From a bacterium (GTDB lineage: Bacteria > Patescibacteriota > Saccharimonadia > Saccharimonadales > SZUA-47): 64,000 bases of DNA. Both the position numbers and the translations under genes were made by a program. Under the pieces are notes generated by a model. The model was not told where the DNA came from. It saw only the letters and a list, made by a program, of their open reading frames with translations, and searched no databases. Numbering within the stretch: position 1 is the first letter of the stretch; each line of letters starts with the position of its first letter. Shown here in pieces: positions 9,947 through 22,557 of the stretch. The DNA is taken from NCBI GenBank assembly GCA_030428125.1, contig JAUIBF010000001.1, positions 298,383 through 362,382 of the forward strand, written 5' to 3'.

Positions 9947-10753
9947 TTAATATATATAGCGAAAATAATTCGCCGGTAAAGTCCTTACTGTTTTTACGTA
10001 CAGACCTTTGTGGTTCATCTCTGAAATTGTTACGGTTCCATCGGAATTCACGCTTTGTACGTATACAACGTGGTTACCCCGTTGGCCAACAGCACCCGCT
10101 CGTGGTTTAGTACCTACGGCCATCCCTTGAGCTGCAGCACGAGAGTACCAGCTGTATGCGTTACCCAGATTATTAGGTAAGTCGGGGCGCATATTTTTTA
10201 CGTACCATGTGCAGTAACCTGCAACATATCTATTGCCAGCAGAACTACCCCTGCTTACAGTAGTGGTTGATTTAACATTAGCTATTGGAGAGGATTGTCT
10301 GGTAGAGCCAGAACTTGCTGATCTAGTGGTTGCAGTTGCTTCAGGTTGTGGCACATTCCGCTCCTCAACATCCTCACTTGCTTCAGGAATAATTAGTTCA
10401 TCCCCAGGGTTTATGACATCTGGGTTTTCAATGGTAGTATTTTTGTCGAAAATCCTTTTCCAGGTGGTTTCATATTTTTTAGCAATACTTGATAAGCTCT
10501 CAGACTCTCTAACCTTGTGCTTAATCACATCAGCATTCTCTTGAGCAGAATCTTCAGCTGTTTCTTCAGAATTTTCACTTATCTTTTCGACATTGATTAT
10601 GTCATCGGCTGTTATATTTTGGGTAAGCAGAGCAAGCTCTACTCCAGACTCTTTAATTTTTAAAGTACTGTTAGTGCTAGCATCGGCTTTAGAGCCGCTT
10701 GCAGCAATAATTAGGGTACACGCCAAAACACCCGTAATAACGGATATACGCAT
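9947..10753 (-). CDS. secreted peptidoglycan hydrolase, LysM + CHAP domains
   Basis: Signal peptide MRISVITGVLACTLIIAASGSKA. LysM-like segment SLSSIAKKYETTWKRIFDKNTTIENPDVINPGDELIIP. C-terminal CHAP-like region with CTWYV ... GNHVVYVQSV ... ISEMN. Confidence 0.88.
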   Translation of the reverse strand: MRISVITGVLACTLIIAASGSKADASTNSTLKIKESGVELALLTQNITADDIINVEKISENSEETAEDSAQENADVIKHKVRESESLSSIAKKYETTWKRIFDKNTTIENPDVINPGDELIIPEASEDVEERNVPQPEATATTRSASSGSTRQSSPIANVKSTTTVSRGSSAGNRYVAGYCTWYVKNMRPDLPNNLGNAYSWYSRAAAQGMAVGTKPRAGAVGQRGNHVVYVQSVNSDGTVTISEMNHKGLYVKTVRTLPANYFRYIY

Positions 10754-10990
10754 TCTTAGATTGTCTCCTTTTTCTTGACTACTTATCTGTGAGTGTCATT
10801 AGTAATATTTGGTTCTCGCAGATTTTTGCACAATTTTTGCCTCACACACAAAAGTGCAGGCTTATTATGCTACACACCAGACCCTCTACACGTCAATAGA
10901 GCCTGTGGATAAGTTTGCATGTAACAGATATCACAGACAGCAAAAATTGGGCATTATAGACTGATTTTAGAACTAAAAGAAGGGATTTTT

Positions 10991-11375: not shown

Positions 11376-12029
11376 ATGTTTTTATTAGCTACTGGGCTCA
11401 TCTTGCTCGGTGGATTCACTGCTCTATTAGGGCAGAGATTATTTAGGATACTACTACCAATTGCTGGTTTAGTGGTCGGAGTTATGGTGGGATTTGGTGG
11501 TGTGCAAGGAGTATTCGGCAAAGGAGCAATCAGCTTATCTATCGCAATATTGATGGCCATCATTGTTGGCGTGATTATGGCAGTCTTGTCTTTTGCATTT
11601 TATGACCTAGCAGTTGTAGTGCTGATGGCTATGTTGGGTGCGTCTGCACTTACATACTTAGGGATTGCAATCGGTCTAGAGAATAACGGATTAATTCTGT
11701 TCCTGCTTGGCCTAACTGGTGCTGTACTTGGAATAATTTTGTCAGCAGGTTCGGCACTGTCAGTGAGTTTGGTATTTGCTGCAACAGCTTTTTTAGGAAC
11801 TGCATTAGTAATGGCTGGCGTACTACTTATTGTCGGTGAGGTCTCAGTTGACCAGCTGCACGATGAAGGTATTATCGCCTCGGTTATAGAAACAGTCGAT
11901 CAGTCATTTATATGGTTCTTTGTTTGGCTAGCTGGCTCCATTGCGGCCCTGTACGGCCAAATGGCGATTGCAACGAATGAGTTTATGACAGACGCTTATG
12001 AATTTAGTGAAAAGAAAGGAAAGAAATAA
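11376..12029 (+). CDS. hypothetical polytopic membrane protein (Gly/Ala/Leu-rich helices)
   Basis: 217-aa ORF preceded by aggagga, with about 6 TM helices. The family is not confidently recognised. Confidence 0.6.
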   Translation: MFLLATGLILLGGFTALLGQRLFRILLPIAGLVVGVMVGFGGVQGVFGKGAISLSIAILMAIIVGVIMAVLSFAFYDLAVVVLMAMLGASALTYLGIAIGLENNGLILFLLGLTGAVLGIILSAGSALSVSLVFAATAFLGTALVMAGVLLIVGEVSVDQLHDEGIIASVIETVDQSFIWFFVWLAGSIAALYGQMAIATNEFMTDAYEFSEKKGKK

Positions 12030-14306: not shown

Positions 14307-15108
14307 AAATCCAGTAAAATTCGGAGTTCAAGTCTTTACGATACTTATTAGGGTAGGCGTAGTACTACTGTTGATTTATATAGGATATTCGGTCTATAAA
14401 ATTTTATTAGAAGGTATTTTTGGAAGTGATTACATACTCCCGGCAATTGCAATTTGGGTGTTTACAGCCTACATAGTTTTACCTAGAATTCACAGACTGC
14501 TGACAAAACTCTACATACCAGACTATTACATTGGTAGAACGAGGACTGGAGATGGTCTGTATGGAGATCCTGTTAATATTGCATTCTACGGTTCTAAAAA
14601 AGAAATAATTAACTCCATGAAACAGGCAGACTGGCATCAAGCAGCAGAGTTAAGCTTCGCCTCTAGTGTGAAGATGACTGTATCGACTTTAATTAAAAAA
14701 AGCTACCCTGATGCACCGGTAAGTTCACTGTATCTATTTGGTCGCAAACAGGATATGGCTTTTCAGCAAGAATTAAACAATAACCCTCACTCTAGGCATC
14801 ATGTTAGGTTCTGGAAAGTGCCCGACGGATGGAGGTTACCCGGTGGGCACGACGCGGACTGGTTAGCAGCTGCCAGCTTTGATACAAATGTAGGTTTGTC
14901 ATGGTTTACATTCCAAATTACTCATAAAATCGATGAAAATATTGATGAGGAAAGGGATCATATAATAGACACCCTGAAAGTTGCCGAACAGGTTGCATCT
15001 GTAGAGTTGGTTGAGAATTTCACCACAGCGTACCACTCGAGGAATGGAGGAGGTGATATGGTTAAAACAGATGGCACAATGCCGTTTATAAAGTTAAATT
15101 CTAACTAA
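14296..15108 (+). CDS. LssY C-terminal-like domain membrane protein
   Basis: 270 aa with two N-terminal TM helices. GDPVNIAFYGSKKEI and SRHHVRFWK resemble LssY_C family conservation as I recall it. Confidence 0.5.
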   Translation: MISKNPVKFGVQVFTILIRVGVVLLLIYIGYSVYKILLEGIFGSDYILPAIAIWVFTAYIVLPRIHRLLTKLYIPDYYIGRTRTGDGLYGDPVNIAFYGSKKEIINSMKQADWHQAAELSFASSVKMTVSTLIKKSYPDAPVSSLYLFGRKQDMAFQQELNNNPHSRHHVRFWKVPDGWRLPGGHDADWLAAASFDTNVGLSWFTFQITHKIDENIDEERDHIIDTLKVAEQVASVELVENFTTAYHSRNGGGDMVKTDGTMPFIKLNSN

Positions 15109-15475
15109 TACTTCTAGTAATTTTATGAATCCTATCGTGGTTTAATCCGTAAAAATGAGCAACTTCGTGCCAGACCGTTTCGTAGATTTGTCTTTTTAGT
15201 GACTCTTCATCCTTATAAATTTCTACCATTGGATATCTAAATATTGTGATTACATCAGGCACTTTAGAATACACGGCTCCATTTCTGGAAGGCAAAGGCA
15301 CGCCCTCATATAGTCCAAATAGCGCATCGCATTTCCTTAACCCTAGTTTATCTCTTTGTTGTTTAGAGGGTTCATCCTCAACAACGAAATTAATCTCGGT
15401 TATTTTGGAGTTGTACGGCTCGGGTACGTTATTAATTGCTTCGGAAACAATATTTTCGAATTCTTCGTAGTCCAT
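15101..15475 (-). CDS. Zincin_1-type metallopeptidase-family protein
   Basis: HEVAHFYG (HExxH) in a small acidic protein. The ORF-track start at 15481 is TTG; the ATG two codons in (15475) is more likely. Confidence 0.7.
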   Translation of the reverse strand: MDYEEFENIVSEAINNVPEPYNSKITEINFVVEDEPSKQQRDKLGLRKCDALFGLYEGVPLPSRNGAVYSKVPDVITIFRYPMVEIYKDEESLKRQIYETVWHEVAHFYGLNHDRIHKITRSIS

Positions 15476-15507
15476 TACCAATATTATGGCATACTGCCAT
15501 AGGTAAA

Positions 15508-17502
15508 CTATGCTTGATTTACCTGCGTATTGTTATAATAAATCCTCCCCAGTACAAGTAGAGAGGCTACAGCAATTAGTACCTGCCAAAGCTGAATGCT
15601 GAATCCACTGTCTGGTTCATCTATGGTGTATGAAGGAGGATTTGTGTTAGGGGATGTAGATGCAAGAACTTGATCGTTCTGTTCTTGAACTACTTCTTGC
15701 GAAGTGTCCTGCAGTGGAATTGCTGTGAAACTTCCTTCGCCATCATTGCTTAAAGCCAGCACGACAACTTGGTCTGAATTCGTAGCATTGCTCACGATGC
15801 TAGCAAGCGAGTTGCTGGATTGGCTAATGTCTTCCGTCGCTGGATTGCCACCTATACCACCACCATTTGTCGAGAATCCACCATAAGCCGTGTCGGTGCC
15901 GAAACTGCCATACCAATTACCAAGTATATTTAGCTGGACGACCCCGAATATATTCGAGAAATTTAAACTGGAATTTACAAAATTTAGCAGGTTTAGTGCT
16001 GCATAGGCATCACCGGTTGTTGCATCACCGGCATTCGTGTTGCTAGAAACGGTGGCGTTTCCTGAACTTGCTGATATGTTTATATTGTTTTCAATAACAT
16101 AGCTCCTCTCAATATCAGCATCTAAAGCCGTTACTCCAGCAATTGGAGTAGACTGAGCAGCCCCACCACCCAAAAATGCGCTGTTGCTGCCTTCTGGAGC
16201 TCCTGTTATAAATCCTATCCACTCACCAAATACGTTTACAAACACTAACAACCCACTGGAACTGTTTAACTGTTCGCCTATCAAATTGAATACGGTTATA
16301 TCAGTTTGTGCATTACCAGACTTTGCATCACCGGCATTGGTATTATTTGATACTTCAGCATTTCCAGAAGATGAAGCTAGCTGAAGATTGTTGTCTATAA
16401 CAATGTCAGTTTTATTATCGAGTTCTAGATCTCCGGTTAGAGATACATTTGCAGTAGGGACTTTAGCGGCTAGTAATTGTTCTGTTAGTGATTCTGGTAG
16501 CAGTACATCGCCTTCTAAATCGCCGTAGACGTTAATGGTGCCAATAAAAGATTGACCTGCCACTATGGAAGAGTTTATTAAGTTCATGACTTGGGCAACT
16601 GCTAAAGCATCACCTGTTGTTGCATCACCGGCATTCGTGTTTTTAGATACCAGTGCATTACCACTGTTTGCTTGGATGTCCAAATTGTTCTGGATGCCGG
16701 CAGTTTCAACGTGCTCTACGTTTAATTTGCCCAAACTAGAACTATCACTAACAGATAGATTTTCTGGATCAATCACTAAGTCTCCAACATGTCCTCCTTG
16801 TATAGTCGTATTTAATATAGCCGGTGCTTGACCATTTGCTGACCAAGATGACTGAAGCATATTTATAATACTTGCTACAACTTCAGCGTCGCCAGTAGAT
16901 GCACTGCCCGCATTGGTGTTGTATAGAACGCTCGCATCTCCTGAACTGGCAGTTGAATTCAGACTATTGCTTATCGAAGCGTTAAAATATGTGTCGAAAA
17001 ACTTAGAATTTTTATCGTCTTCTTCTATAGTATTCTCAGATTCTGGCCCAGTATTACTTATTGTTCCTGTGTTAGCATGCTGTTTCGAGTTTGGCCCTGT
17101 GTTTGAAATCTGCGTGTCAGAGACCGGGTTGCTAATTTGGTTAGTAGAGTTAGTGCCTGTATTTTCAATCGTAGCTTTTACATTCTGCGGGACGTAAGAC
17201 TTTGCGGTACTATCATATACCCAAACATCAGTATCCCATTGTTCAGTTTCTGGGTTGTAACTGTAATTAACTTCTTTGAGAGGTGTCGTTTTATTGTTTG
17301 CGGGGTTCCAGGCGTAAATACCATTTTCCCAAAGTCCGGTTTCAGGATTGAATTTATATTTTGGAGGTGCGTCTTCTGACGTAGCAGGTTCTGTATTAGT
17401 TTCTTGAGCAACTAGAACGGGGCTTAAATGAGCAAAAATCAGAATTGTACAGCATAATAATATAGCCGTAATCCTGACAGTTAGTAGCTGATTTATGCGC
17501 AT
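15508..17502 (-). CDS. secreted, C-terminally membrane-anchored repeat protein (four SGNA..NTNAGDA.TGDA modules)
   Basis: 664 aa. It has an N-terminal signal-like helix and two NPET..W motifs. Four modules of about 95 aa have SG[DN]A cores at residues 187, 280, 379 and 480. A C-terminal TM helix reads WQVLIAVASLLVLGRIYY. Confidence 0.85.
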   Translation of the reverse strand: MRINQLLTVRITAILLCCTILIFAHLSPVLVAQETNTEPATSEDAPPKYKFNPETGLWENGIYAWNPANNKTTPLKEVNYSYNPETEQWDTDVWVYDSTAKSYVPQNVKATIENTGTNSTNQISNPVSDTQISNTGPNSKQHANTGTISNTGPESENTIEEDDKNSKFFDTYFNASISNSLNSTASSGDASVLYNTNAGSASTGDAEVVASIINMLQSSWSANGQAPAILNTTIQGGHVGDLVIDPENLSVSDSSSLGKLNVEHVETAGIQNNLDIQANSGNALVSKNTNAGDATTGDALAVAQVMNLINSSIVAGQSFIGTINVYGDLEGDVLLPESLTEQLLAAKVPTANVSLTGDLELDNKTDIVIDNNLQLASSSGNAEVSNNTNAGDAKSGNAQTDITVFNLIGEQLNSSSGLLVFVNVFGEWIGFITGAPEGSNSAFLGGGAAQSTPIAGVTALDADIERSYVIENNINISASSGNATVSSNTNAGDATTGDAYAALNLLNFVNSSLNFSNIFGVVQLNILGNWYGSFGTDTAYGGFSTNGGGIGGNPATEDISQSSNSLASIVSNATNSDQVVVLALSNDGEGSFTAIPLQDTSQEVVQEQNDQVLASTSPNTNPPSYTIDEPDSGFSIQLWQVLIAVASLLVLGRIYYNNTQVNQA
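15883..16995 (-). repeat. four tandem coding repeats of about 280-300 bp inside the 664-aa gene
   Basis: The protein core SSGNAxVSxNTNAGDAxxGDA recurs four times. A DNA echo is visible, e.g. gttgcatcaccggcattcgtgtt at about 16016 and about 16616. Confidence 0.8.
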
Positions 17503-17534
17503 TTAATTTCCTTTCTAGTTAGTGGCAGGTGAGC

Positions 17535-17600
17535 CTACCTCGCAGAGCTTCAGACTAGGTGTGTCCAATGCCCGTCCTTGGAAAGCCTTGTGCGAGGTAG
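17535..17600. other. 10-bp inverted repeat enclosing a GC-rich 46-nt segment, between two secreted-protein genes
   Basis: ctacctcgca (17535-17544) is the exact reverse complement of tgcgaggtag (17591-17600). Confidence 0.5.
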
Positions 17601-17639
17601 TATTACACTTGCGTTATACACTAACTTATTTCTATAAGT

Positions 17640-18224
17640 TTAGTTAGTAACTGATAGGTTGAAAATCACACTGCTGGAATTACTTGCTCCACCAGTTGAT
17701 GCACTTCCACCTGTAGTGTTGCCCCAAACAACAGCATTACCACTGTCGGCATCTTGGTCAACGTCAGCGTCAAAGTCTACGTCAGTATCGTTCTTGATCT
17801 CAACTCTAGTTTCGTTCTCGAACTTTACTTCGTTCTTCGAATCCGGTCCGGTGTTCTCTATAGATGCTTCACCGTCACCCATTGCGTTACCGTCACAAGC
17901 ACAAGCACTGCTAGAACTATTGTCTATGTCTAAGGTTGCTTCGATCCCACTGTCATTTTCTGCGTCTCCAGATTCAGCATCTCCACCAGAAGTGTTGTGC
18001 TTGACCCATGCATCGCCACTGTCGGCGTCTTGATCCACATCTACGTCGGCGTCAACATCAGTTTCGTTGTCGACTTCATATTTGTACTCGTTCTCGTATC
18101 TGATCTCGTTGTCAGAGTCAGGGCCGGTGGTATCAATCATTCCGGATTGAGCTCCAACTAAGACCCCTGTGGCTAAGAACACGCTTGAAAAAGCGGCCGC
18201 TAGGGCTTTTAGAATCTTTTTCAT
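17640..18224 (-). CDS. small secreted acidic repeat protein (two modules related to the 664-aa protein)
   Basis: The ATG at 18224 is preceded by ggaaagagg. Signal peptide MKKILKALAAAFSSVFLATGVLVGAQS. Two modules read TGPDSxNE...DVDQDADSG[DN]AxV..NTxGG.A.xG.A. Confidence 0.8.
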   Translation of the reverse strand: MKKILKALAAAFSSVFLATGVLVGAQSGMIDTTGPDSDNEIRYENEYKYEVDNETDVDADVDVDQDADSGDAWVKHNTSGGDAESGDAENDSGIEATLDIDNSSSSACACDGNAMGDGEASIENTGPDSKNEVKFENETRVEIKNDTDVDFDADVDQDADSGNAVVWGNTTGGSASTGGASNSSSVIFNLSVTN

Positions 18225-18272
18225 AAAAGACCTCTTTCCTTGCAATTTTTAAATTAGTAAAAGTGGACACCC

Positions 18273-18317
18273 CGCCCAGCTTGCTGGGATTTTTGACAAA
18301 CACCAACAAGCTGGGCG
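18273..18317. other. 11-bp inverted repeat with a competing internal complement, in the intergenic spacer
   Basis: cgcccagcttg (18273-18283) is the reverse complement of caagctgggcg (18307-18317). gctggg at 18283-18288 can also pair with cccagc at 18275-18280. Confidence 0.5.
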
Positions 18318-18347
18318 ATGTGATTTTTTCTAATCAGCTACCTCCTC

Positions 18348-18893
18348 TCATTGGTTTTCGCCATCCACAGATATATTTAACGAACTAGAGCCACGAGAGT
18401 TAGAATCCTCACGTATTCTTACTCTCACTTTTGAATCTTCGTCTCGTATAGTCTCGTTAGCACGGCCACGATCGTCCAGCTCTATACTTTCACCGTTTAC
18501 TTCGATCTTTGGTTTTTCTGCAGTAGGTTGACCATTAGTTTCTTCGTTTAGTTCTTCGGTTTTAGGTTGGCTAGATGACTTAGTTTCTGTAGAAATTGAA
18601 ATACTAATATTAGAGCTGGATTTTTCTTCATCTTTTACGGTATTTGTTGATTCCGAATTTTCATCACTATCGTTTTCGGTCGATGAACTACTGACCATTA
18701 CTACCTCTGACTGTGATGACTCTATTCCTTTAGCTGTAGCTGCTGCTACAGCTTCAGTCGCTTGTAACGAGTTGCTTCTGCCCGCAGAAGGCGCGACAGC
18801 TGTAATTATCACAAGCACAGAGACTGCAAACAAAATTACAGTTAGTTGCAAAATTCGTTTTTTCGTTATAAATCCATTCATAAATCCCCTCAC
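18348..18893 (-). CDS. membrane-anchored Ser/Glu-rich low-complexity protein
   Basis: 181 aa. An N-terminal TM helix (LQLTVILFAVSVLVIITAVA) is followed by a long S/E/N-rich, disordered-looking region. Confidence 0.65.
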   Translation of the reverse strand: MRGFMNGFITKKRILQLTVILFAVSVLVIITAVAPSAGRSNSLQATEAVAAATAKGIESSQSEVVMVSSSSTENDSDENSESTNTVKDEEKSSSNISISISTETKSSSQPKTEELNEETNGQPTAEKPKIEVNGESIELDDRGRANETIRDEDSKVRVRIREDSNSRGSSSLNISVDGENQ

Positions 18894-18973
18894 TCCGGGT
18901 GGATTTAATCATGACTTGCTAACTATCACATTGACAGCAGACAAGGTTTATAAGTGCTCTATGTCAATCTAAA

Positions 18974-19624
18974 TTAGATGTGGTTGCCAAGTTCGTTTTT
19001 AAGTAACATGTAATTCTTTACTGTGATAAATTTTCTACTTACGCTAACAAATCCCTTTTGCTTCATTTTTTTGAGTACACGATTAGTAGTTTCACGGCTT
19101 AATCCTGTTTGCTCAGCGAGCTCGTATTCGTGAATTTTCAAGTTGTACTGCTTAGTGTCATTCGATTTCTTTGTGTGTAGGCATTCATTTACCAATTCAT
19201 ACAAAAGCCTGTTGTATGCACTGCTGCTCATTGCATATGACATTCGTCTTAAAATCGATTCTATGGACTCATGAGCAAGTAGCAACAAGTCATAGACTAT
19301 ATCTGGATTGTTATTAAAAAAACTTCTTAAATCTTCGATGGGTGCAATCCTGACTTTAATGTCGTCAGAAGCTTCAAAGAAATAATTATTATCAGCTTTA
19401 GTTAAGATCGAAGATATAGGGAATAAGGTCGTTTCTCTAAATACATTTACTACTACGTCGTTACCATCATCAGATATTTGATATTGTCTTACTCTCCCTG
19501 ATTGCATGTAGATAATTTTATCTACTGAATCTTCTGGGTGTAATAATATTTGTCCTCTATGATAATTTCTGGTTGGATAGTTGGCAAAAAAACTACTCAA
19601 CCTAATTCTGGTCATCATTTGCAT
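18974..19624 (-). CDS. Crp/Fnr-family transcriptional regulator
   Basis: A cNMP-binding-like beta-barrel region is followed by a C-terminal HTH (ELAEQTGLSRETTNRVLKKMKQKGFV). The start at 19624 is chosen because gaggggga lies 8 nt upstream; the ORF track extends to 19654. Confidence 0.85.
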   Translation of the reverse strand: MQMMTRIRLSSFFANYPTRNYHRGQILLHPEDSVDKIIYMQSGRVRQYQISDDGNDVVVNVFRETTLFPISSILTKADNNYFFEASDDIKVRIAPIEDLRSFFNNNPDIVYDLLLLAHESIESILRRMSYAMSSSAYNRLLYELVNECLHTKKSNDTKQYNLKIHEYELAEQTGLSRETTNRVLKKMKQKGFVSVSRKFITVKNYMLLKNELGNHI

Positions 19625-19717
19625 CCCGGCATCCCCCTCGTGAAGCATAGGCATATTACGTCAATAGTCACCTGCGTGCATTGATTTATTTCACACAATT
19701 ATAAGTAAATCTGTCAT

Positions 19718-19770: not shown

Positions 19771-20190
19771 ATGTCAAGTAGGCGAAAGAAAAAATTTGAA
19801 AAATTGATTCAGCTCCATGATGAGTTGCAAGAAATTAGCAAGGATATGCCTAATGGTATTATGTCTTCTACCAATGAAATGCCTTTGATAGATATGTTTG
19901 AGATCGATGAAAAGCTGGAAATCAAAATCTATATACCAGAGTTCGATAAAGAAGAAATTGAGTTAGGCGTAAGTGATCATATCCTGGAAGTGCACGCACA
20001 AAAAAAAGAAACCTCAGATACTTACAGCAGGAGGTATTTAATAAAAGAATCAAGGAGTATATATTCACGAAAAATTAGCTTGCCAGAGGGAACAGCACCC
20101 AGAGAACTGAAGGCTAAATATGAAGACAATATCCTAGAGATTTTTATCCCGTATAAAAAGTCTGATACGTTCAAATTTAAAGTCAGTTAG
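19771..20190 (+). CDS. Hsp20/alpha-crystallin small heat-shock protein
   Basis: An alpha-crystallin-domain pattern is present: DMFEIDEKLEIKIYIPEFDKEEIELGV...SRKISLPEG...AKYEDNILEIFIP. Confidence 0.88.
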   Translation: MSSRRKKKFEKLIQLHDELQEISKDMPNGIMSSTNEMPLIDMFEIDEKLEIKIYIPEFDKEEIELGVSDHILEVHAQKKETSDTYSRRYLIKESRSIYSRKISLPEGTAPRELKAKYEDNILEIFIPYKKSDTFKFKVS

Positions 20191-20247
20191 TCACTACACA
20201 ATACCAACAGCTTTGATATTGCTTGAATCTGCAATACAATATTGCTT

Positions 20248-21171
20248 ATGCAAACAGTCTACTTTCGCAATATTCGTAGTCAAGTCTTGGAGAAAATTAA
20301 TTCCCCTAAGCGCGGTGCCTGGGTCAGGGTAGTTGACCCTAGTAGCGAAGAACTGAAAAAACTGGAAAAAGATTTTAATCTCGATGCAGATCTTCTAGCT
20401 GACGGAGTCGACCTTTATGAGGTACCTCGTATCGAACGCGAAGGCAACAATCTTTATATATATGTTCGGTATTGCCGGCCAGTCGGCGAGTACACGAGTA
20501 CGCATCCACTTCTGATAGTTGTCATGCCAGATATGTTGCTGACAGTTTCGAGAATTGAATCCGAACCAATTTCTAAGCTTATTGATTCCCAGCAAGTAGT
20601 AACTACTCAGAAACTCAAGCTAGTACTGCAAATCCTAGGTGAACTGAACAGGGGATATAGACAGCACCTAAACAACGTTACTAAAAAGATATTAAGTACC
20701 AGAAAGCGTTTGCAGAGAACTATTGTTAATAATGACGACATATTAACGTTTATTGATGTCGAGGAGGATTTAAACGAGTTCCTGGCAGCACTTCAGCCTT
20801 ACGGGATTGTTCTACACGCATTGCTTGACGGCAAGTACATGAAACTTCACGAGGAAGACGAAGAATTGATAGAGGATTTGCAATTATCCGCCGGGGAGCT
20901 AGTAGAGCTGACGAAAAGCAGATTAAAGACCATTCAAAATATCCGTGAAGCGTACAACACAATCGCAACCAATAACCTTAACAAAGTCTTTAAGCGCCTA
21001 ACGTCAATCGCCATATTTATGTCTATCCCAACCGTAGTCGGTGGACTTTATGGAATGAACGTTTTGCTCCCTTTCAGCGATAGTGATGATGCATTCTGGT
21101 ATATTTTAGGTGCTACTGGTTTAATAATGACCGGATTTGTTATTTATTTTAAGCGACATCGCTGGCTATAA
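20248..21171 (+). CDS. corA: CorA-family magnesium/cobalt transporter
   Basis: The YGMN motif (GGLYGMNV) sits before the last TM helix, and there are two C-terminal TM helices. The ATG at 20248 is preferred to the TTG at 20242. Confidence 0.88.
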   Translation: MQTVYFRNIRSQVLEKINSPKRGAWVRVVDPSSEELKKLEKDFNLDADLLADGVDLYEVPRIEREGNNLYIYVRYCRPVGEYTSTHPLLIVVMPDMLLTVSRIESEPISKLIDSQQVVTTQKLKLVLQILGELNRGYRQHLNNVTKKILSTRKRLQRTIVNNDDILTFIDVEEDLNEFLAALQPYGIVLHALLDGKYMKLHEEDEELIEDLQLSAGELVELTKSRLKTIQNIREAYNTIATNNLNKVFKRLTSIAIFMSIPTVVGGLYGMNVLLPFSDSDDAFWYILGATGLIMTGFVIYFKRHRWL

Positions 21172-21175
21172 AGAG

Positions 21176-21592
21176 TTAACGGCTGCAAGAGATACATCGA
21201 CCGTGTAGTTCAATTACATGTTCATCGATTATGAACCTGTATGCTTCTTCTAGGCGTTCAAGCTCTGCCAGCAATTTATACGATTCTTCAAATGAAGTGA
21301 CTTTACCACAGACTATACAGCTCATGTGATGATGGTGATGTGTAAAGTTATCACTAAGCTCGAATTTTTGTTTCCAGCCGATACTCACATGCTTTATAAG
21401 GCCTGTTTTTTCAAATGTATCGAGGGTTCTATAAACTGTCGTCTTATCCATTGTGCCCGACGCCCTATCAATAATCTCAGTAGCCGATAATGGTTTCTTC
21501 GAACTAGCAATAATATGGAATAATACTCGACGGCTTTTAGTGTTACTTAACGAGTACTTGTCTAAAATTTCTAAGTAGATTTTGTCCTGCAT
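21176..21592 (-). CDS. Fur-family metalloregulator, probably Zur
   Basis: Winged-helix N-terminus, an HHHHH cluster, and CxxC pairs (CIVCGK, CISCS). It is divergent from a ZIP zinc transporter gene. Confidence 0.85.
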   Translation of the reverse strand: MQDKIYLEILDKYSLSNTKSRRVLFHIIASSKKPLSATEIIDRASGTMDKTTVYRTLDTFEKTGLIKHVSIGWKQKFELSDNFTHHHHHMSCIVCGKVTSFEESYKLLAELERLEEAYRFIIDEHVIELHGRCISCSR

Positions 21593-21612
21593 ATTGCAAT
21601 ATTATCAATTAA

Positions 21613-21627
21613 TGCAACTATGTTGCA
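21613..21627. promoter_or_regulatory. candidate Fur/Zur operator (15-bp dyad)
   Basis: TGCAACTATGTTGCA is a perfect 6-3-6 palindrome of Fur-box length, centred in the 65-bp divergent intergenic region. ATTGCAAT-like half sites occur nearby. Confidence 0.45.
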
Positions 21628-21657
21628 ATTTAAATTTTCAAGAGTTAATCTAAACTT

Positions 21658-22557
21658 ATGTTAAATGTAATTATATTTTCCTTAGTAGGTGGAGTATTTT
21701 CTCTTGTTGGCGGGATTTTACTACTACAAAACAAAAAAACTGCCAACGGCTTAGCAAAGTATGCAACACCTTTTGCAGCAGGAGTTTTGCTAGCAGCAGC
21801 ATTCACTGATCTGTTGCCAGAAGCAATGCATGAAGGCGAGCCAAGAGATGTTCTAGTAGCGACTCTATGTGGATTGCTTGGATTCTTTTTCCTTGAGAGG
21901 TATTTAAGGTTTTTTCATCACCACCATGAACATGGCAAAAATAATAGAACTTCTAGCCCACTGATAATTATTGGCGATACACTTCATAACGCTCTGGACG
22001 GTATAGCAATCGGGGCCGCATTTTTAGTGAGCCCAGGAACTGGGATTGTAGCAGCCGTAGCTGTCGCGGCGCACGAGATACCTCAAGAAATTGGTGATTT
22101 TGGCTTGCTTCTTAAAAATGGCATGGATAAGAGTAAAGTAATATGGGTGAATGTATTAAGCGCTCTAGCTACAACAGTTACTGCAGTCATAACTTACGCT
22201 ATCGGAGACAGCGATAGTTCGTTTATCCCATATCTACTCGCAATAACTGCAGGATTCTTTATCTATATTGCAGCTAGCGATATTATCCCGGAGATCCATG
22301 AGAGTCTAGATCATAGGAAAAAGGATATACGACCATGGTTACTTCTAGCGGGTGCGTTGTTGATAATGATCGTGTCTCCGATCGCGCATGACTATATTGA
22401 CGCCAATCACAATCACGACCATTCAGAGTTAACTCACGACGAAGAAGAACACAATGAACAAGACCATAATCATGAACACGAAGAGGAAGATGAACACGAC
22501 GAGCACGAGCATGATGATCACAATGAAGAAGAAAATCACCACGATCACGACCACTAA
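21658..22557 (+). CDS. ZIP-family zinc transporter with His/Asp/Glu-rich C-terminal tail
   Basis: ZupT-like motifs are present (HNALDGIAIG, HEIPQEIGDF). The last 50 or so residues are HNHDHSELTHDEEEHNEQDHNHEHEEEDEHDEHEHDDHNEEENHHDHDH. Confidence 0.88.
   Translation: MLNVIIFSLVGGVFSLVGGILLLQNKKTANGLAKYATPFAAGVLLAAAFTDLLPEAMHEGEPRDVLVATLCGLLGFFFLERYLRFFHHHHEHGKNNRTSSPLIIIGDTLHNALDGIAIGAAFLVSPGTGIVAAVAVAAHEIPQEIGDFGLLLKNGMDKSKVIWVNVLSALATTVTAVITYAIGDSDSSFIPYLLAITAGFFIYIAASDIIPEIHESLDHRKKDIRPWLLLAGALLIMIVSPIAHDYIDANHNHDHSELTHDEEEHNEQDHNHEHEEEDEHDEHEHDDHNEEENHHDHDH

What the first reader, a model, noticed from the sequence alone, without database searches (positions are those of the whole stretch)
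15508..18893. Crp-adjacent cluster of three secreted/anchored proteins built on an unassigned SGNA..NTNAGDA.TGDA repeat
Three co-directional minus-strand genes lie directly downstream of a Crp/Fnr regulator gene. The first is a 181-aa anchored Ser/Glu-rich protein. The second is a very acidic secreted protein of about 194 aa. The third is a 664-aa protein with a signal peptide and a C-terminal TM anchor. The 664-aa protein contains four modules of about 95 aa, with cores at residues 187, 280, 379 and 480. Each reads [NN-h-x-h]-SSG[ND]AxVSxNTNAGDAx[TS]G[DN]A-...-NhhNSS-...-N[VI][YF]G[DEN][LW]xG. The small protein carries two related modules (DQDADSG[DN]AxV..NTxGGxAx[ST]GxA). Both proteins share TGP[DNE]SxN motifs. 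The spacing and the Asn/Gly/Ala ladders suggest a beta-solenoid or fibre-like fold, loosely reminiscent of GNxA-type functional-amyloid repeats. I cannot assign the repeat to any named domain. The products could be a surface layer or fibre relevant to attachment.
Basis: partly seen in the sequence, partly recalled or inferred. Interest (0 to 1): 0.6.

Follow-up and report, generated by a model that had tools for sequence, protein, structure and literature searches.

The report
Conserved Patescibacteria cell-surface protein cassette
Three neighbouring genes of a Saccharibacteria genome encode a membrane-anchored protein, a secreted partner built from the same previously undescribed beta-strand module, and a small anchored helper; this trio is conserved across these tiny parasitic bacteria, usually behind a Crp-type switch, and probably builds a surface structure.

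Summary
The window carries crp, then C (177-181 aa), B (194 aa) and A (664 aa), all on the minus strand. C has an N-terminal membrane anchor and is Ser/Glu-rich. B is secreted and very acidic. A has a signal peptide, four modules and a C-terminal membrane helix. A and B share a ~75-aa all-beta module (hhalign 99.1%); C lacks it. The module matches nothing significant in Pfam, NCBIfam, PDB sequences or Foldseek searches of PDB and BFVD.

New findings:
- B sits directly upstream of A in 73 of 73 related loci.
- A C-like gene precedes B in 58 of 67 loci.
- At least 215 Saccharibacteria species encode an A homologue. The B-A pair recurs in Daviesbacteria, in an unclassified contig (L083) and next to a Staskawiczbacteria-type homologue.
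- About 22 loci add a one-module LPxTG paralogue next to a sortase.
- A TGTGA-N6-TCACA box lies upstream of C in 42 of 65 loci. It is degenerate (6/10) in the window.
- Both intercistronic spacers carry unusually stable hairpins.

Best reading: a Crp-controlled surface assembly. A would be the membrane-anchored base and B the free subunit held by module-module contacts. Whether it forms fibre, lattice or amyloid is unresolved. This is an uncharacterised family of a known general kind.

The parts
18974..19654 (-). crp: CRP/FNR-family regulator. It keeps the R-E-x-x-x-R recognition-helix motif (LSRETTNRVL). It is the likely regulator of the cassette.
   Evidence: PF00027 5e-11 and PF13545 7e-11. 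Translation. Co-directional adjacency to C is also seen in L002 and L004.
18953..18968 (-). Degenerate positional homologue of the CRP box, ATTGACATAGAGCACT. It matches 6 of 10 positions of TGTGA-N6-TCACA.
   Evidence: It aligns with the perfect box of L002 and the 8/10 box of L004. It was scored. Whether it functions in the window is uncertain.
18348..18881 (-). Gene C. It has a short basic N-terminus, one transmembrane helix (signal anchor), a Ser/Glu-rich spacer and a short conserved C-terminal beta element (..IEVNGESIELDDRGR..VRVRI..SLNISV). It has no module.
   Evidence: An ORF in the same position has an N-terminal hydrophobic helix in most loci. An iterated HMM finds 58 of 67 upstream ORFs; composition bias is a caveat.
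18273..18317 (-). Stable hairpin in the C-B spacer, with an 11-16 bp stem followed by a moderately T-rich stretch.
   Evidence: The spacer has MFE -42.4 kcal/mol and z -4.3. The equivalent spacers in relatives have median z -2.95, with 40 of 50 below -2, against -0.21 in controls.
17640..18224 (-). Gene B. It is a secreted 194-aa protein: a signal peptide (..LVGA|QSG), then two modules joined by a linker with a CxC motif, and no anchor.
   Evidence: A25 and the TGPxS, SG.A and NT..G.A..G positions are invariant across 32 homologues.
17916..18137 (-). B module 1 (residues 30-103).
   Evidence: Module HMM i-E 1.5e-35.
17643..17864 (-). B module 2 (residues 121-194).
   Evidence: Module HMM i-E 1.5e-32.
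17535..17600 (-). Stable hairpin in the B-A spacer. A perfect 10-bp outer stem (CTACCTCGCA/TGCGAGGTAG) encloses further pairing. No U-tract follows.
   Evidence: The spacer has MFE -43.5 kcal/mol and z -3.8. The B-A spacers of relatives have median z -2.71, with 51 of 63 below -2, against control median -0.21 and 6 of 56. The primary sequence is not conserved.
15508..17502 (-). Gene A, 664 aa. In order: signal peptide, Trp-rich hairpin domain, low-complexity TGPxSxN linker, four extended modules, Ser/Thr-rich stalk, and a C-terminal transmembrane helix with a short tail.
   Evidence: More than 345 homologues of 650-750 aa share the same architecture.
17182..17367 (-). N-terminal Trp/Tyr-rich domain of A (residues ~46-107). 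It holds two copies of YxYNxxTGxW(E/D)xxxYxWxP and eight short strands. It is the distal tip and a candidate ligand-binding part.
   Evidence: W65, P67, N83, W89 and Y103 are invariant. AlphaFold2 places strands at 50-105 with pLDDT 57-85. Only insignificant hits were found: DUF3836 at E 0.76, 4r03 and jacalin.
16753..17064 (-). A module 1 (residues ~147-250), including the TGPES start motif and the SSGDA..NTNAGSASTGDA core.
   Evidence: Module HMM i-E 4e-16. pLDDT 91-94 over residues 180-210.
16468..16728 (-). A module 2 (residues ~259-345), with the extension SFIGTINVYGDLEGDVLLP.
   Evidence: Module HMM i-E 1e-9. pLDDT 92-96.
16207..16431 (-). A module 3 (residues ~358-432), with the extension LLVFVNVFGEWIGFI.
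   Evidence: Module HMM i-E 4e-12. pLDDT 89-95. VFVNV.G.W is invariant.
15883..16116 (-). A module 4 (residues ~463-540), with the extension IFGVVQLNILGNWYGSFG.
   Evidence: Module HMM i-E 4e-10. pLDDT 92-97.
15532..15597 (-). C-terminal transmembrane anchor of A (residues ~636-657).
   Evidence: AlphaFold2 predicts a helix at 636-663. A hydrophobic segment followed by basic residues is conserved in the family.

Best explanation
C-B-A is a conserved Patescibacteria cell-envelope cassette that builds a multi-component, beta-rich surface assembly.

Proposed roles:
- A is exported by Sec and stays tethered by its C-terminal membrane helix. A Ser/Thr-rich stalk carries four self-folding modules and a Trp-rich tip domain beyond the wall.
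- B is exported and has no anchor. It consists only of the bare version of the same module. It would stay on the cell by pairing its modules with those of A, of other B copies, or of the sortase-anchored one-module paralogue B' where present. This is inferred, not shown.
- C is a small membrane-anchored accessory of unknown role.

Regulation and stoichiometry:
- Transcription starts at a promoter that, in most Saccharibacteria, carries a TGTGA-N6-TCACA box centred near -41.5. That is class II CRP-type geometry, so a Crp-family regulator would switch the cassette on.
- Stable hairpins after C and after B probably set unequal amounts of the three products, with B in excess (inferred).

The product is most likely an extended coat, fibre or lattice that forms the outer face of the cell and could mediate contact with hosts.

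Shown here: gene anatomy, module homology, export and anchor signals, synteny, box enrichment, hairpin conservation. Inferred: co-assembly, stoichiometry, Crp binding, adhesive or coat function.
For: - Module homology: A and B share the module (hhalign 99.1%; HMM hits).
- Self-folding: A's modules have a hydrophobic extension that B lacks. AlphaFold2 folds A's cores confidently (pLDDT above 90). With the same alignment depth, B alone gives pLDDT 44 and very long exposed strands.
- Synteny: B lies immediately upstream of A in 73 of 73 loci. A C-like anchored ORF precedes B in 58 of 67.
- Paralogues: forms with 1, 2, 3, 4, 5 and 6 modules exist, so modules need not pair within one chain.
- Wall anchoring: about 22 loci add a one-module LPxTG protein next to a sortase.
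- Spread: the B-like/A-like pair recurs beyond Saccharibacteria. In Daviesbacteria a sortase and an LPISG-tailed module protein sit alongside. It also occurs on the unclassified contig L083 and next to an A-like protein whose only named record is Staskawiczbacteria, where the A-like protein ends in dockerin repeats.
- CRP box: at least 8/10 matches in 42 of 65 loci. Perfect sites occur at 0.431 per kb against 0.007 per kb in control intergenic DNA. A TAnnnT hexamer lies 21-22 nt downstream in 20 of 32. The window's Crp keeps the RE...R recognition motif.
- Hairpins: median z is -2.7 and -2.95 for the two spacers, against -0.2 in control spacers.
Against: - No experiment or multimer prediction shows that A and B bind each other.
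- B's poor model may simply reflect a shallow 32-sequence alignment.
- No coordinates could be inspected, so the module's topology (sandwich, solenoid or single-layer sheet) is unknown.
- In the window the CRP box is degenerate (6/10), and the usual -10 spacing is not seen. Crp control of this particular copy rests on gene adjacency and positional homology.
- No sortase or B' lies within the 64-kb window.
- The C family is low-complexity, so its HMM statistics are inflated by composition. C was not detected outside Saccharibacteria.
- The hairpin controls used mononucleotide shuffles.
Confidence: 0.5

Rival explanations
1. A is a stand-alone fibrillar adhesin, with the four modules as stalk, the Trp-rich domain as binding tip and the membrane helix as anchor. 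B is an independent secreted protein that merely shares ancestry with the stalk repeat. It might be a soluble decoy, a matrix component or a cation binder. It does not assemble on A.
For: A has the architecture of a fibrillar adhesin: signal peptide, tip domain, repeats, low-complexity stalk and anchor. Its modules appear self-sufficient, with pLDDT above 90. B in this lineage is extremely acidic on one strand face.
Against: Typical adhesins are patchy and fast-evolving. Here the four modules keep their individual signatures and order from Saccharibacteria to Daviesbacteria. B-A adjacency is 73 of 73. An anchorless B with exposed amphipathic strands and a one-module sortase-anchored paralogue are hard to explain without intermolecular module contacts. 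No known adhesive domain was detected.
Confidence: 0.2
2. The cassette encodes the surface layer (S-layer) of these bacteria. B, or multi-module B-like proteins, would form a two-dimensional lattice. A would be the membrane-anchored stalk that holds it, as SlaB holds SlaA in Sulfolobales.
For: The cassette has core-like conservation across Patescibacteria classes. It pairs an anchorless subunit gene with a C-terminally anchored partner gene. Hairpins are consistent with excess B. From background knowledge: cryo-EM of groundwater ultra-small bacteria showed a periodic surface layer whose genes are not identified. I found no paper in the library that assigns it.
Against: No SLH or other S-layer family was matched. 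Mature Saccharibacterial B is only about 17 kDa. Inducible Crp control is unusual for a constitutive S-layer. Abundance and lattice formation were not testable here.
Confidence: 0.15
3. This is the first reader's lead: the modules are functional-amyloid repeats. B would be the fibre subunit and A an anchored nucleator, analogous to CsgA/CsgB, FapC/FapB or short and long chaplins.
For: The pairing of anchored multi-module and secreted few-module proteins, plus a sortase-anchored paralogue, mirrors long and short chaplins. Asn/Gly/Ala-rich strand-turn motifs and Asn ladders are present. B is not confidently folded as a monomer. The top, non-significant PDB hit is FapC.
Against: No sequence match to the curli, chaplin, Fap or TasA families. 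The FapC match is noise (E 0.79, TM 0.06-0.14, rmsd 28 A). A's modules are predicted as ordinary folded beta domains with hydrophobic cores. In this lineage B has one strand face that is almost entirely Asp, which disfavours stacking without counter-ions.
Confidence: 0.1
4. The proteins are wall-associated polyanions. They would bind or buffer divalent cations or shape surface charge, rather than forming a defined structure.
For: B has D+E 42 against K+R 12, with alternating D-x-D strands. C is Ser/Glu-rich. Metal-homeostasis genes (Zip, Fur, CorA) lie just beyond crp.
Against: The acidity is lineage-specific; most B homologues have Asn, Lys or Thr at these positions. The flanking genes are not conserved with the cassette. 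No Ca-binding family was matched.
Confidence: 0.05

Closest known systems
Chaplins of Streptomyces (long ChpA-C, sortase-anchored; short ChpD-H, secreted)
   Same: One small beta module occurs in anchored multi-copy proteins and in anchorless secreted proteins. In relatives of this cassette a sortase-anchored paralogue exists. Co-assembly on a monoderm surface is the working model.
   Different: There is no sequence similarity: the Pfam chaplin family is not hit. The module here is about 75-100 aa, not about 40. The main anchor is a C-terminal membrane helix. Amyloid formation is not shown. The genes are strictly adjacent and ordered.
Curli CsgB/CsgA and Fap FapB/FapC nucleator and subunit pairs
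   Same: Adjacent genes encode homologous repeat proteins, one surface-bound and one free. The repeats are Asn/Gly/Ala-rich strand-turn units.
   Different: Those are diderm systems with dedicated outer-membrane secretion. No family match was found, and the FapC fold match is not significant. A's modules look like stable folded domains.
Sulfolobales S-layer pair SlaA/SlaB
   Same: A two-gene unit in which an anchorless outer component is held by a partner with a C-terminal membrane helix and a Ser/Thr-rich stalk.
   Different: That system is archaeal and unrelated in sequence. Its two proteins do not share a module. Lattice formation here is hypothetical.
Fibrillar adhesins of Gram-positive bacteria (stalk repeats, tip domain and anchor, e.g. 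SasG/Aap)
   Same: A's layout is signal peptide, distal tip domain, tandem beta repeats, low-complexity stalk and anchor.
   Different: The repeat and the tip domain belong to no known stalk or adhesive family. The anchor is a membrane helix rather than LPXTG. Conservation is core-like rather than patchy. An obligatory secreted partner gene is present.
FecR domain (Pfam PF04773)
   Same: The strand pattern around TGPxSxN...V.L.N resembles the first half of the FecR profile. Six of 32 B homologues give weak hits, and one (P0138) reaches 28.9 bits against a cut-off of 24.
   Different: The window's B scores 16.2 bits, below the cut-off. Only profile positions 5-52 of 97 align. No solved FecR/PupR chain is found by sequence or profile. 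The context is entirely different: no sigma or anti-sigma genes and no TonB system.
Class II CRP-dependent promoters (E. coli CRP, Corynebacterium GlxR, Mycobacterium CRP)
   Same: A TGTGA-N6-TCACA palindrome lies about 21-22 nt upstream of a TAnnnT hexamer, so its centre is near -41.5. The regulator has the RE...R recognition helix.
   Different: Binding is untested and the effector is unknown. Many sites read TGTAA/TTACA or TGTTA/TAACA. The window's own site is degenerate.

Membership tests
Curli (Curlin_rpt, CsgA/CsgB) | Match to the curlin repeat profile (Sx5QxGxGNxAx3Q units). | tested here: not met
   No Curlin_rpt hit for A, B, C or 64 homologues at E up to 1.
Curli (Curlin_rpt, CsgA/CsgB) | Dedicated csgEFG-type outer-membrane secretion genes nearby. 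| tested here: not met
   The neighbours are crp, hsp20, corA, fur, zip, zincin, LssY_C and an AI-2E transporter. None is CsgG-like.
Fap functional amyloid (FapC) | Structural similarity to the FapC beta-solenoid. | tested here: not met
   Foldseek hit to 9nqd has E 0.79, probability 0.02, TM 0.06/0.14 and rmsd 27.9 A.
Chaplins | Match to the chaplin domain profile. | tested here: not met
   No Pfam or NCBIfam hit.
Chaplins | Anchored multi-domain forms coexist with secreted short forms, and a sortase anchor is used. | tested here: met
   The analogy is in architecture only. A has four modules and a membrane helix; B has two modules and no anchor. B' has one module plus LPxTG and sits next to a sortase in about 22 related loci, but not in the window.
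Functional amyloid in general | Cross-beta fibres, ThT/Congo-red binding and detergent resistance. | not testable with these tools
   This needs recombinant protein.
FecR domain (PF04773) | Score at or above Pfam's gathering threshold (24 bits) over the domain. | tested here: not met
   The window's B scores 16.2 bits on profile positions 4-39 of 97. Only 1 of 32 homologues passes, at 28.9 bits and as a partial match.
Sortase substrates (LPXTG surface proteins) | C-terminal LPXTG motif, then a hydrophobic segment, then a basic tail. | tested here: not met
   A, B and C of the window have no LPXTG. A has a hydrophobic segment and short tail but only a (Q)VL(A/G)S motif about 20 residues upstream. 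Paralogue B' in related loci does have LPxTG.
S-layer proteins | A known S-layer or anchoring domain (SLH, CWB2 and similar). | tested here: not met
   No such Pfam or NCBIfam hit.
S-layer proteins | Forms a 2-D crystalline lattice and is among the most abundant proteins. | not testable with these tools
   This needs cryo-ET or proteomics.
Fibrillar adhesins | Tandem stalk repeats plus a cell anchor. | tested here: met
   A has four modules, an S/T-rich stalk and a C-terminal membrane helix.
Fibrillar adhesins | A recognised adhesive tip domain. | tested here: not met
   The N-terminal Trp-rich domain has only insignificant hits: DUF3836 at E 0.76 and jacalin at E 0.36.
RTX / beta-roll Ca-binding repeats | GGxGxDxUx nonapeptide profile match. 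| tested here: not met
   No HemolysinCabind hit.
CRP regulon, class II promoter | A TGTGA-N6-TCACA palindrome centred near -41.5 upstream of the operon. | tested here: inconclusive
   Relatives meet it: 42 of 65 loci have at least 8/10 matches, perfect sites are about 60-fold enriched, and a -10-like hexamer lies 21-22 nt downstream in 20 of 32. The window's own site scores only 6/10 and lacks the usual -10 spacing.
CRP regulon, class II promoter | The regulator has CRP-type DNA-recognition residues. | tested here: met
   LSRETTNRVL corresponds to the R180-E181-R185 pattern of E. coli CRP. The comparison is from memory of the E. coli sequence; the window sequence is.

The most novel reading that the evidence does not exclude
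The cassette encodes the main outer surface structure of Patescibacteria (CPR), as a lattice or sheath. It would be built from a previously unknown beta module, with a membrane-anchored base (A), a wall-anchored member (B') and a free subunit (B). A Crp-family regulator would switch it on. It would form the interface through which these ultra-small episymbionts touch their hosts.
Probability: 0.2. Interest if true: 0.85.

Novelty: new variant of a known kind. Interest (0 to 1): 0.62.

Why it matters
Patescibacteria are a large share of bacterial diversity. They live attached to other microbes, yet apart from type IV pili almost nothing is known about what their surface is made of. This cassette has several properties that make it a prime candidate for a core envelope structure:
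- It is conserved in gene order from Saccharibacteria to Daviesbacteria.
- It has no known fold or family.
- It combines membrane-anchored, sortase-anchored and free versions of one module.
- It sits behind a recognisable Crp-type promoter in most Saccharibacteria.

It also offers a first predicted regulon member for the Saccharibacterial Crp. The cassette yields directly testable reagents: a module HMM, a promoter box and an antigen. These could be used in the genetically tractable Saccharibacteria strains.

Tried and rejected
- Pfam and NCBIfam scans of A, B, C and 64 homologues gave only sub-threshold noise: FecR, YdcK solenoid, DUF3836 and MSCRAMM low-complexity hits.
- PDB sequence and profile searches found nothing.
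- Foldseek of the A model against PDB and BFVD found nothing significant.
- AlphaFold2 of B gave pLDDT 44, too poor for fold search.
- Cluster look-ups of multi-module relatives returned no names.
- Seven literature searches found no description of this family, of a Saccharibacterial Crp regulon or of CPR sortase substrates.
- The sigma-70 promoter and terminator scan of the region was no better than shuffles.
- The B-A spacer is not conserved in primary sequence, only in stability.
- The C HMM does not detect the small anchored proteins of the Daviesbacteria locus.
- No CRP box lies upstream of the distant pair on L083.
- Codon-adaptation analysis of expression was considered and dropped, because the window offers no reference set of highly expressed genes.

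Full report
**1. Observation.**
The region holds four co-directional minus-strand ORFs.
- crp lies at 18974-19654. It matches cNMP_binding (5e-11) and HTH_Crp_2 (7e-11).
- C lies at 18348-18893. It is 181 aa from a GTG start. Gene callers use the ATG at 18881, giving 177 aa.
- B lies at 17640-18224 and is 194 aa.
- A lies at 15508-17502 and is 664 aa.

SG[ND]A sits at A residues 187, 280, 379 and 480, and TGP[DNE]S occurs twice in each of A and B. B has 42 Asp+Glu against 12 Lys+Arg. C is 17% Ser and 12% Glu.

A 75-aa module HMM built only from B-family sequences hits A four times: residues 147-210, 259-302, 358-401 and 470-500, with i-E from 4e-16 to 1e-9. It hits B twice and C not at all. 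hhalign of the B-family profile against the A-family profile gives 99.1% probability, E 3.9e-19. The repeat is therefore real and is shared by A and B. C is a different kind of protein. No other module protein lies in the window.

**2. Anatomy of the three proteins.**

*Protein A.* An alignment of 32 homologues and an AlphaFold2 model (mean pLDDT 61, pTM 0.51) give this layout:
- a signal peptide ending in a near-invariant Ala;
- a Trp/Tyr-rich domain of eight short strands, with W65, P67, N83, W89 and Y103 invariant;
- a disordered linker carrying TGPxSxN motifs;
- four all-beta modules whose cores reach pLDDT 89-97;
- a disordered Ser/Thr-rich stretch;
- a C-terminal helix at residues 636-663.

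Each A module has a hydrophobic extension that B lacks. Examples are SFxGxLNIxGNLxGDILLP, LLVFVNVxGxWVGxI and WFGVLFINVFGxWxGSFG. The four modules keep individual signatures and their order across the whole family.

*Protein B.* It has a signal peptide (..VGA|QSG), two bare modules and a linker that often carries CxC. Its strands alternate hydrophobic and polar residues. In this lineage the polar face is almost all Asp, but most homologues have Asn, Lys or Thr there. AlphaFold2 gives only pLDDT 44 for B, with 30-residue strands.

*Protein C.* It has a basic N-terminus, one membrane helix, a Ser-rich spacer and a short conserved C-terminal element (..VNGxxVxLPxNGR...TRIR...NIS..).

**3. Is the module known?**
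No. Pfam and NCBIfam give nothing above threshold for the three proteins or for 64 homologues. PDB sequence and profile searches are empty. Foldseek of the A model finds nothing significant in PDB; the best hit is FapC at E 0.79, TM 0.06-0.14. Foldseek against BFVD also finds nothing significant.

**4. Distribution and synteny.**
- A has more than 345 homologues of 650-750 aa, all unnamed.
- B has at least 133 homologues of about 194 aa, labelled Saccharibacteria or Saccharimonadales where named.
- In GTDB species genomes, 215 stretches encode an A relative. The 80 loci that were returned are nearly all Saccharibacteria MAGs.
- A profile search of 1.84 billion representatives finds 2245 clusters with the module, 1310 of them at E 1e-10 or better. 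Versions include roughly 195-, 285-, 385- and 545-590-aa proteins with two to six modules.
- B lies directly upstream of A in 73 of 73 loci with enough flank.
- An anchored ORF of about 150-200 aa precedes B in most loci. An iterated HMM unites 58 of 67 of them, with a composition-bias caveat.
- Direct crp adjacency is limited to the window's closest relatives: L002 and L004 co-directional, L006 divergent. Elsewhere crp lies some kilobases away or outside the fetched flank.
- About 22 loci carry, within a few kilobases, a one-module paralogue ending in LPxTG, a hydrophobic segment and a basic tail, next to a sortase. In L022 a GT2-like gene sits there as well. None is present in the window.
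- The pair extends beyond Saccharibacteria. On L083 a six-module B-like gene is followed by a 794-aa A-like gene with a C-terminal membrane anchor.
- Homologues of that A-like protein are labelled Parcubacteria, Staskawiczbacteria, Daviesbacteria and Saccharibacteria. Some end in dockerin repeats instead of a membrane helix.
- In a Daviesbacteria genome the order is: small membrane proteins, six-module B-like, A-like, three-module LPISG protein, sortase.
- Next to a dockerin-ended A-like protein whose only named record is Staskawiczbacteria, a six-module B-like gene again lies directly upstream.

**5. Regulation.**
Aligning the crp-C spacers of the window, L002 and L004 exposed a palindrome. 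It is a perfect TGTGATGCAGATCACA in L002.

I scanned 360 nt around the C start in 65 loci.
- A TGTGA-N6-TCACA match of at least 8/10 occurs in 42 loci.
- Perfect sites occur at 0.431 per kb against 0.007 per kb in control intergenic DNA of the same loci.
- Matches of at least 9/10 occur at 0.862 against 0.062 per kb.
- In 20 of 32 curated sites a TAnnnT hexamer starts 21-22 nt after the box. This puts the box centre near -41.5, the class II activation geometry.

The window's Crp retains the R-E-x-x-x-R recognition motif. The cassette is therefore a predicted Crp target across Saccharibacteria, even where crp is not adjacent.

In the window itself the positional homologue (ATTGACATAGAGCACT, 18953-18968) matches only 6/10, and the -10 spacing differs. 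Direct control of this copy is uncertain. Read-through from crp is an alternative.

**6. Intercistronic hairpins.**
The C-B and B-A spacers of the window fold to -42.4 and -43.5 kcal/mol, with z -4.3 and -3.8.

| Spacer in related loci | Median z | Spacers with z below -2 |
|---|---|---|
| B-A | -2.71 | 51 of 63 |
| C-B | -2.95 | 40 of 50 |
| Other co-directional spacers (control) | -0.21 | 6 of 56 |

The sequences themselves are not conserved. Structure-only conservation of this kind fits elements that end or stabilise transcripts. It suggests unequal output of C, B and A. This is an inference.

**7. Mechanism.**
*Shown:* all three proteins are exported or anchored. A and B share a module. 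A's version is self-sufficient and B's is bare. The genes are inseparable. Relatives add a wall-anchored single module and a sortase. A CRP-type promoter and conserved hairpins frame the unit.

*Inferred:* B, having no anchor, is retained by module-module contacts with A, with B', and with itself. The result would be an extended surface structure whose base is A. The Trp-rich tip of A is a candidate ligand-binding part. I put this at about 0.5.

*Rivals:*
- A is a stand-alone fibrillar adhesin with an unrelated role for B (0.2).
- The cassette is an S-layer with A as the stalk (0.15).
- It is a functional amyloid of the curli or chaplin type (0.1).
- It is a polyanionic cation binder (0.05).

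**8. Comparison with known systems.**
In working principle the closest analogues are long and short chaplins, curli and Fap nucleator-subunit pairs, and the SlaA/SlaB S-layer pair. In layout, A resembles Gram-positive fibrillar adhesins. Membership in any of these families fails on every sequence or fold criterion that could be tested (see the membership table). The promoter resembles class II CRP promoters.

**9. Novelty and score.**
The family exists in databases only as hypothetical proteins. I found no paper that describes it. It is an uncharacterised module and cassette of a known general kind: surface repeat proteins with anchored and free members. It would matter if it turns out to be a core envelope structure of Patescibacteria.

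Interest is 0.62. The most novel reading not excluded is that this is the CPR surface layer or host interface (probability about 0.2).

Noticed in passing
window 19680-19695: An 8/10 CRP-type box (ATTGATTTATTTCACA) lies in the divergent spacer between crp (minus strand) and the hsp20 gene (19771-20190, plus strand). It suggests Crp autoregulation and/or control of hsp20.
   Followed up: partly
window 10920-10935: A 9/10 CRP-type box (TGTAACAGATATCACA) lies in the spacer between the LysM/CHAP gene (9947-10753, minus) and the 217-aa gene at 11376-12029 (plus). It is one of only two TGTNA-N6-TNACA sites in the 64-kb window.
   Followed up: no
window 15598-15700 (A residues ~600-635); alignment A1 columns ~850-870: A motif, (Q/A)VL(G/A)(S/T), is conserved about 20 residues before the C-terminal membrane helix of A. 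It is also visible in A-like proteins of other Patescibacteria (e.g. MVLASN, NEVLSFG). The helix often ends G-x-E-R. This could be a processing or sorting signal.
   Followed up: partly
window B linker, residues ~106-112 (about 17889-17909); A-family module borders in homologues: A CxC motif (ACACD) recurs in the inter-module linker of many B homologues. It also appears at module borders of some A homologues (e.g. DCNCGD, ACACGDG). It might form intermolecular disulfides or a metal site.
   Followed up: no
L022 8660-10988; about 22 other loci: A sortase gene and a one-module LPxTG paralogue (B') lie next to the B-A pair in many Saccharibacteria. In L022 a GT2-like membrane glycosyltransferase sits there too. 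The window has none within 64 kb.
   Followed up: yes
L087 6001-8943; P0463, P0479, P0452, P0454: A-like proteins of about 1000 aa (P0463 and P0479 are labelled Staskawiczbacteria) end in dockerin-type repeats instead of a membrane helix. This implies attachment through a cohesin-like partner.
   Followed up: partly
L083 2367-2936: This ORF ends in a PEP-CTERM-like tail (VPEPGG..LLAKRNRFF). It lies on the same short contig as the CPR-like B/A pair and a pilin-like gene. The contig may be chimeric or come from an unexpected lineage.
   Followed up: no
window 15101-15481: A Zincin_1 metallopeptidase gene starts 26 nt downstream of A on the same strand. A homologue lies next to A in L024, on the opposite strand. 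In L004, L008 and L061 it is a few kilobases away, so it is probably not part of the cassette.
   Followed up: partly
window 20242-22557: A metal-homeostasis cluster lies beside crp and hsp20: CorA (20242-21171), Fur (21176-21592) and a ZIP transporter (21658-22557). The ZIP transporter has a long His/Asp/Glu-rich C-terminal tail.
   Followed up: no
window 18974-19654 (Crp protein): The Crp keeps the DNA-recognition motif. It shows no obvious G-E...R-[ST]-A cAMP-contact motif in its nucleotide-binding domain. Its best NCBIfam similarity is to NtcA (E 2e-15, far below the cut-off). The effector may not be cAMP.
   Followed up: no
window 15704-18033, plus strand: Several 60-124-aa ORFs lie antisense to A and B (e.g. 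17659-18033). They are mechanical by-products of the repeat-rich coding strand. None has independent support.
   Followed up: no
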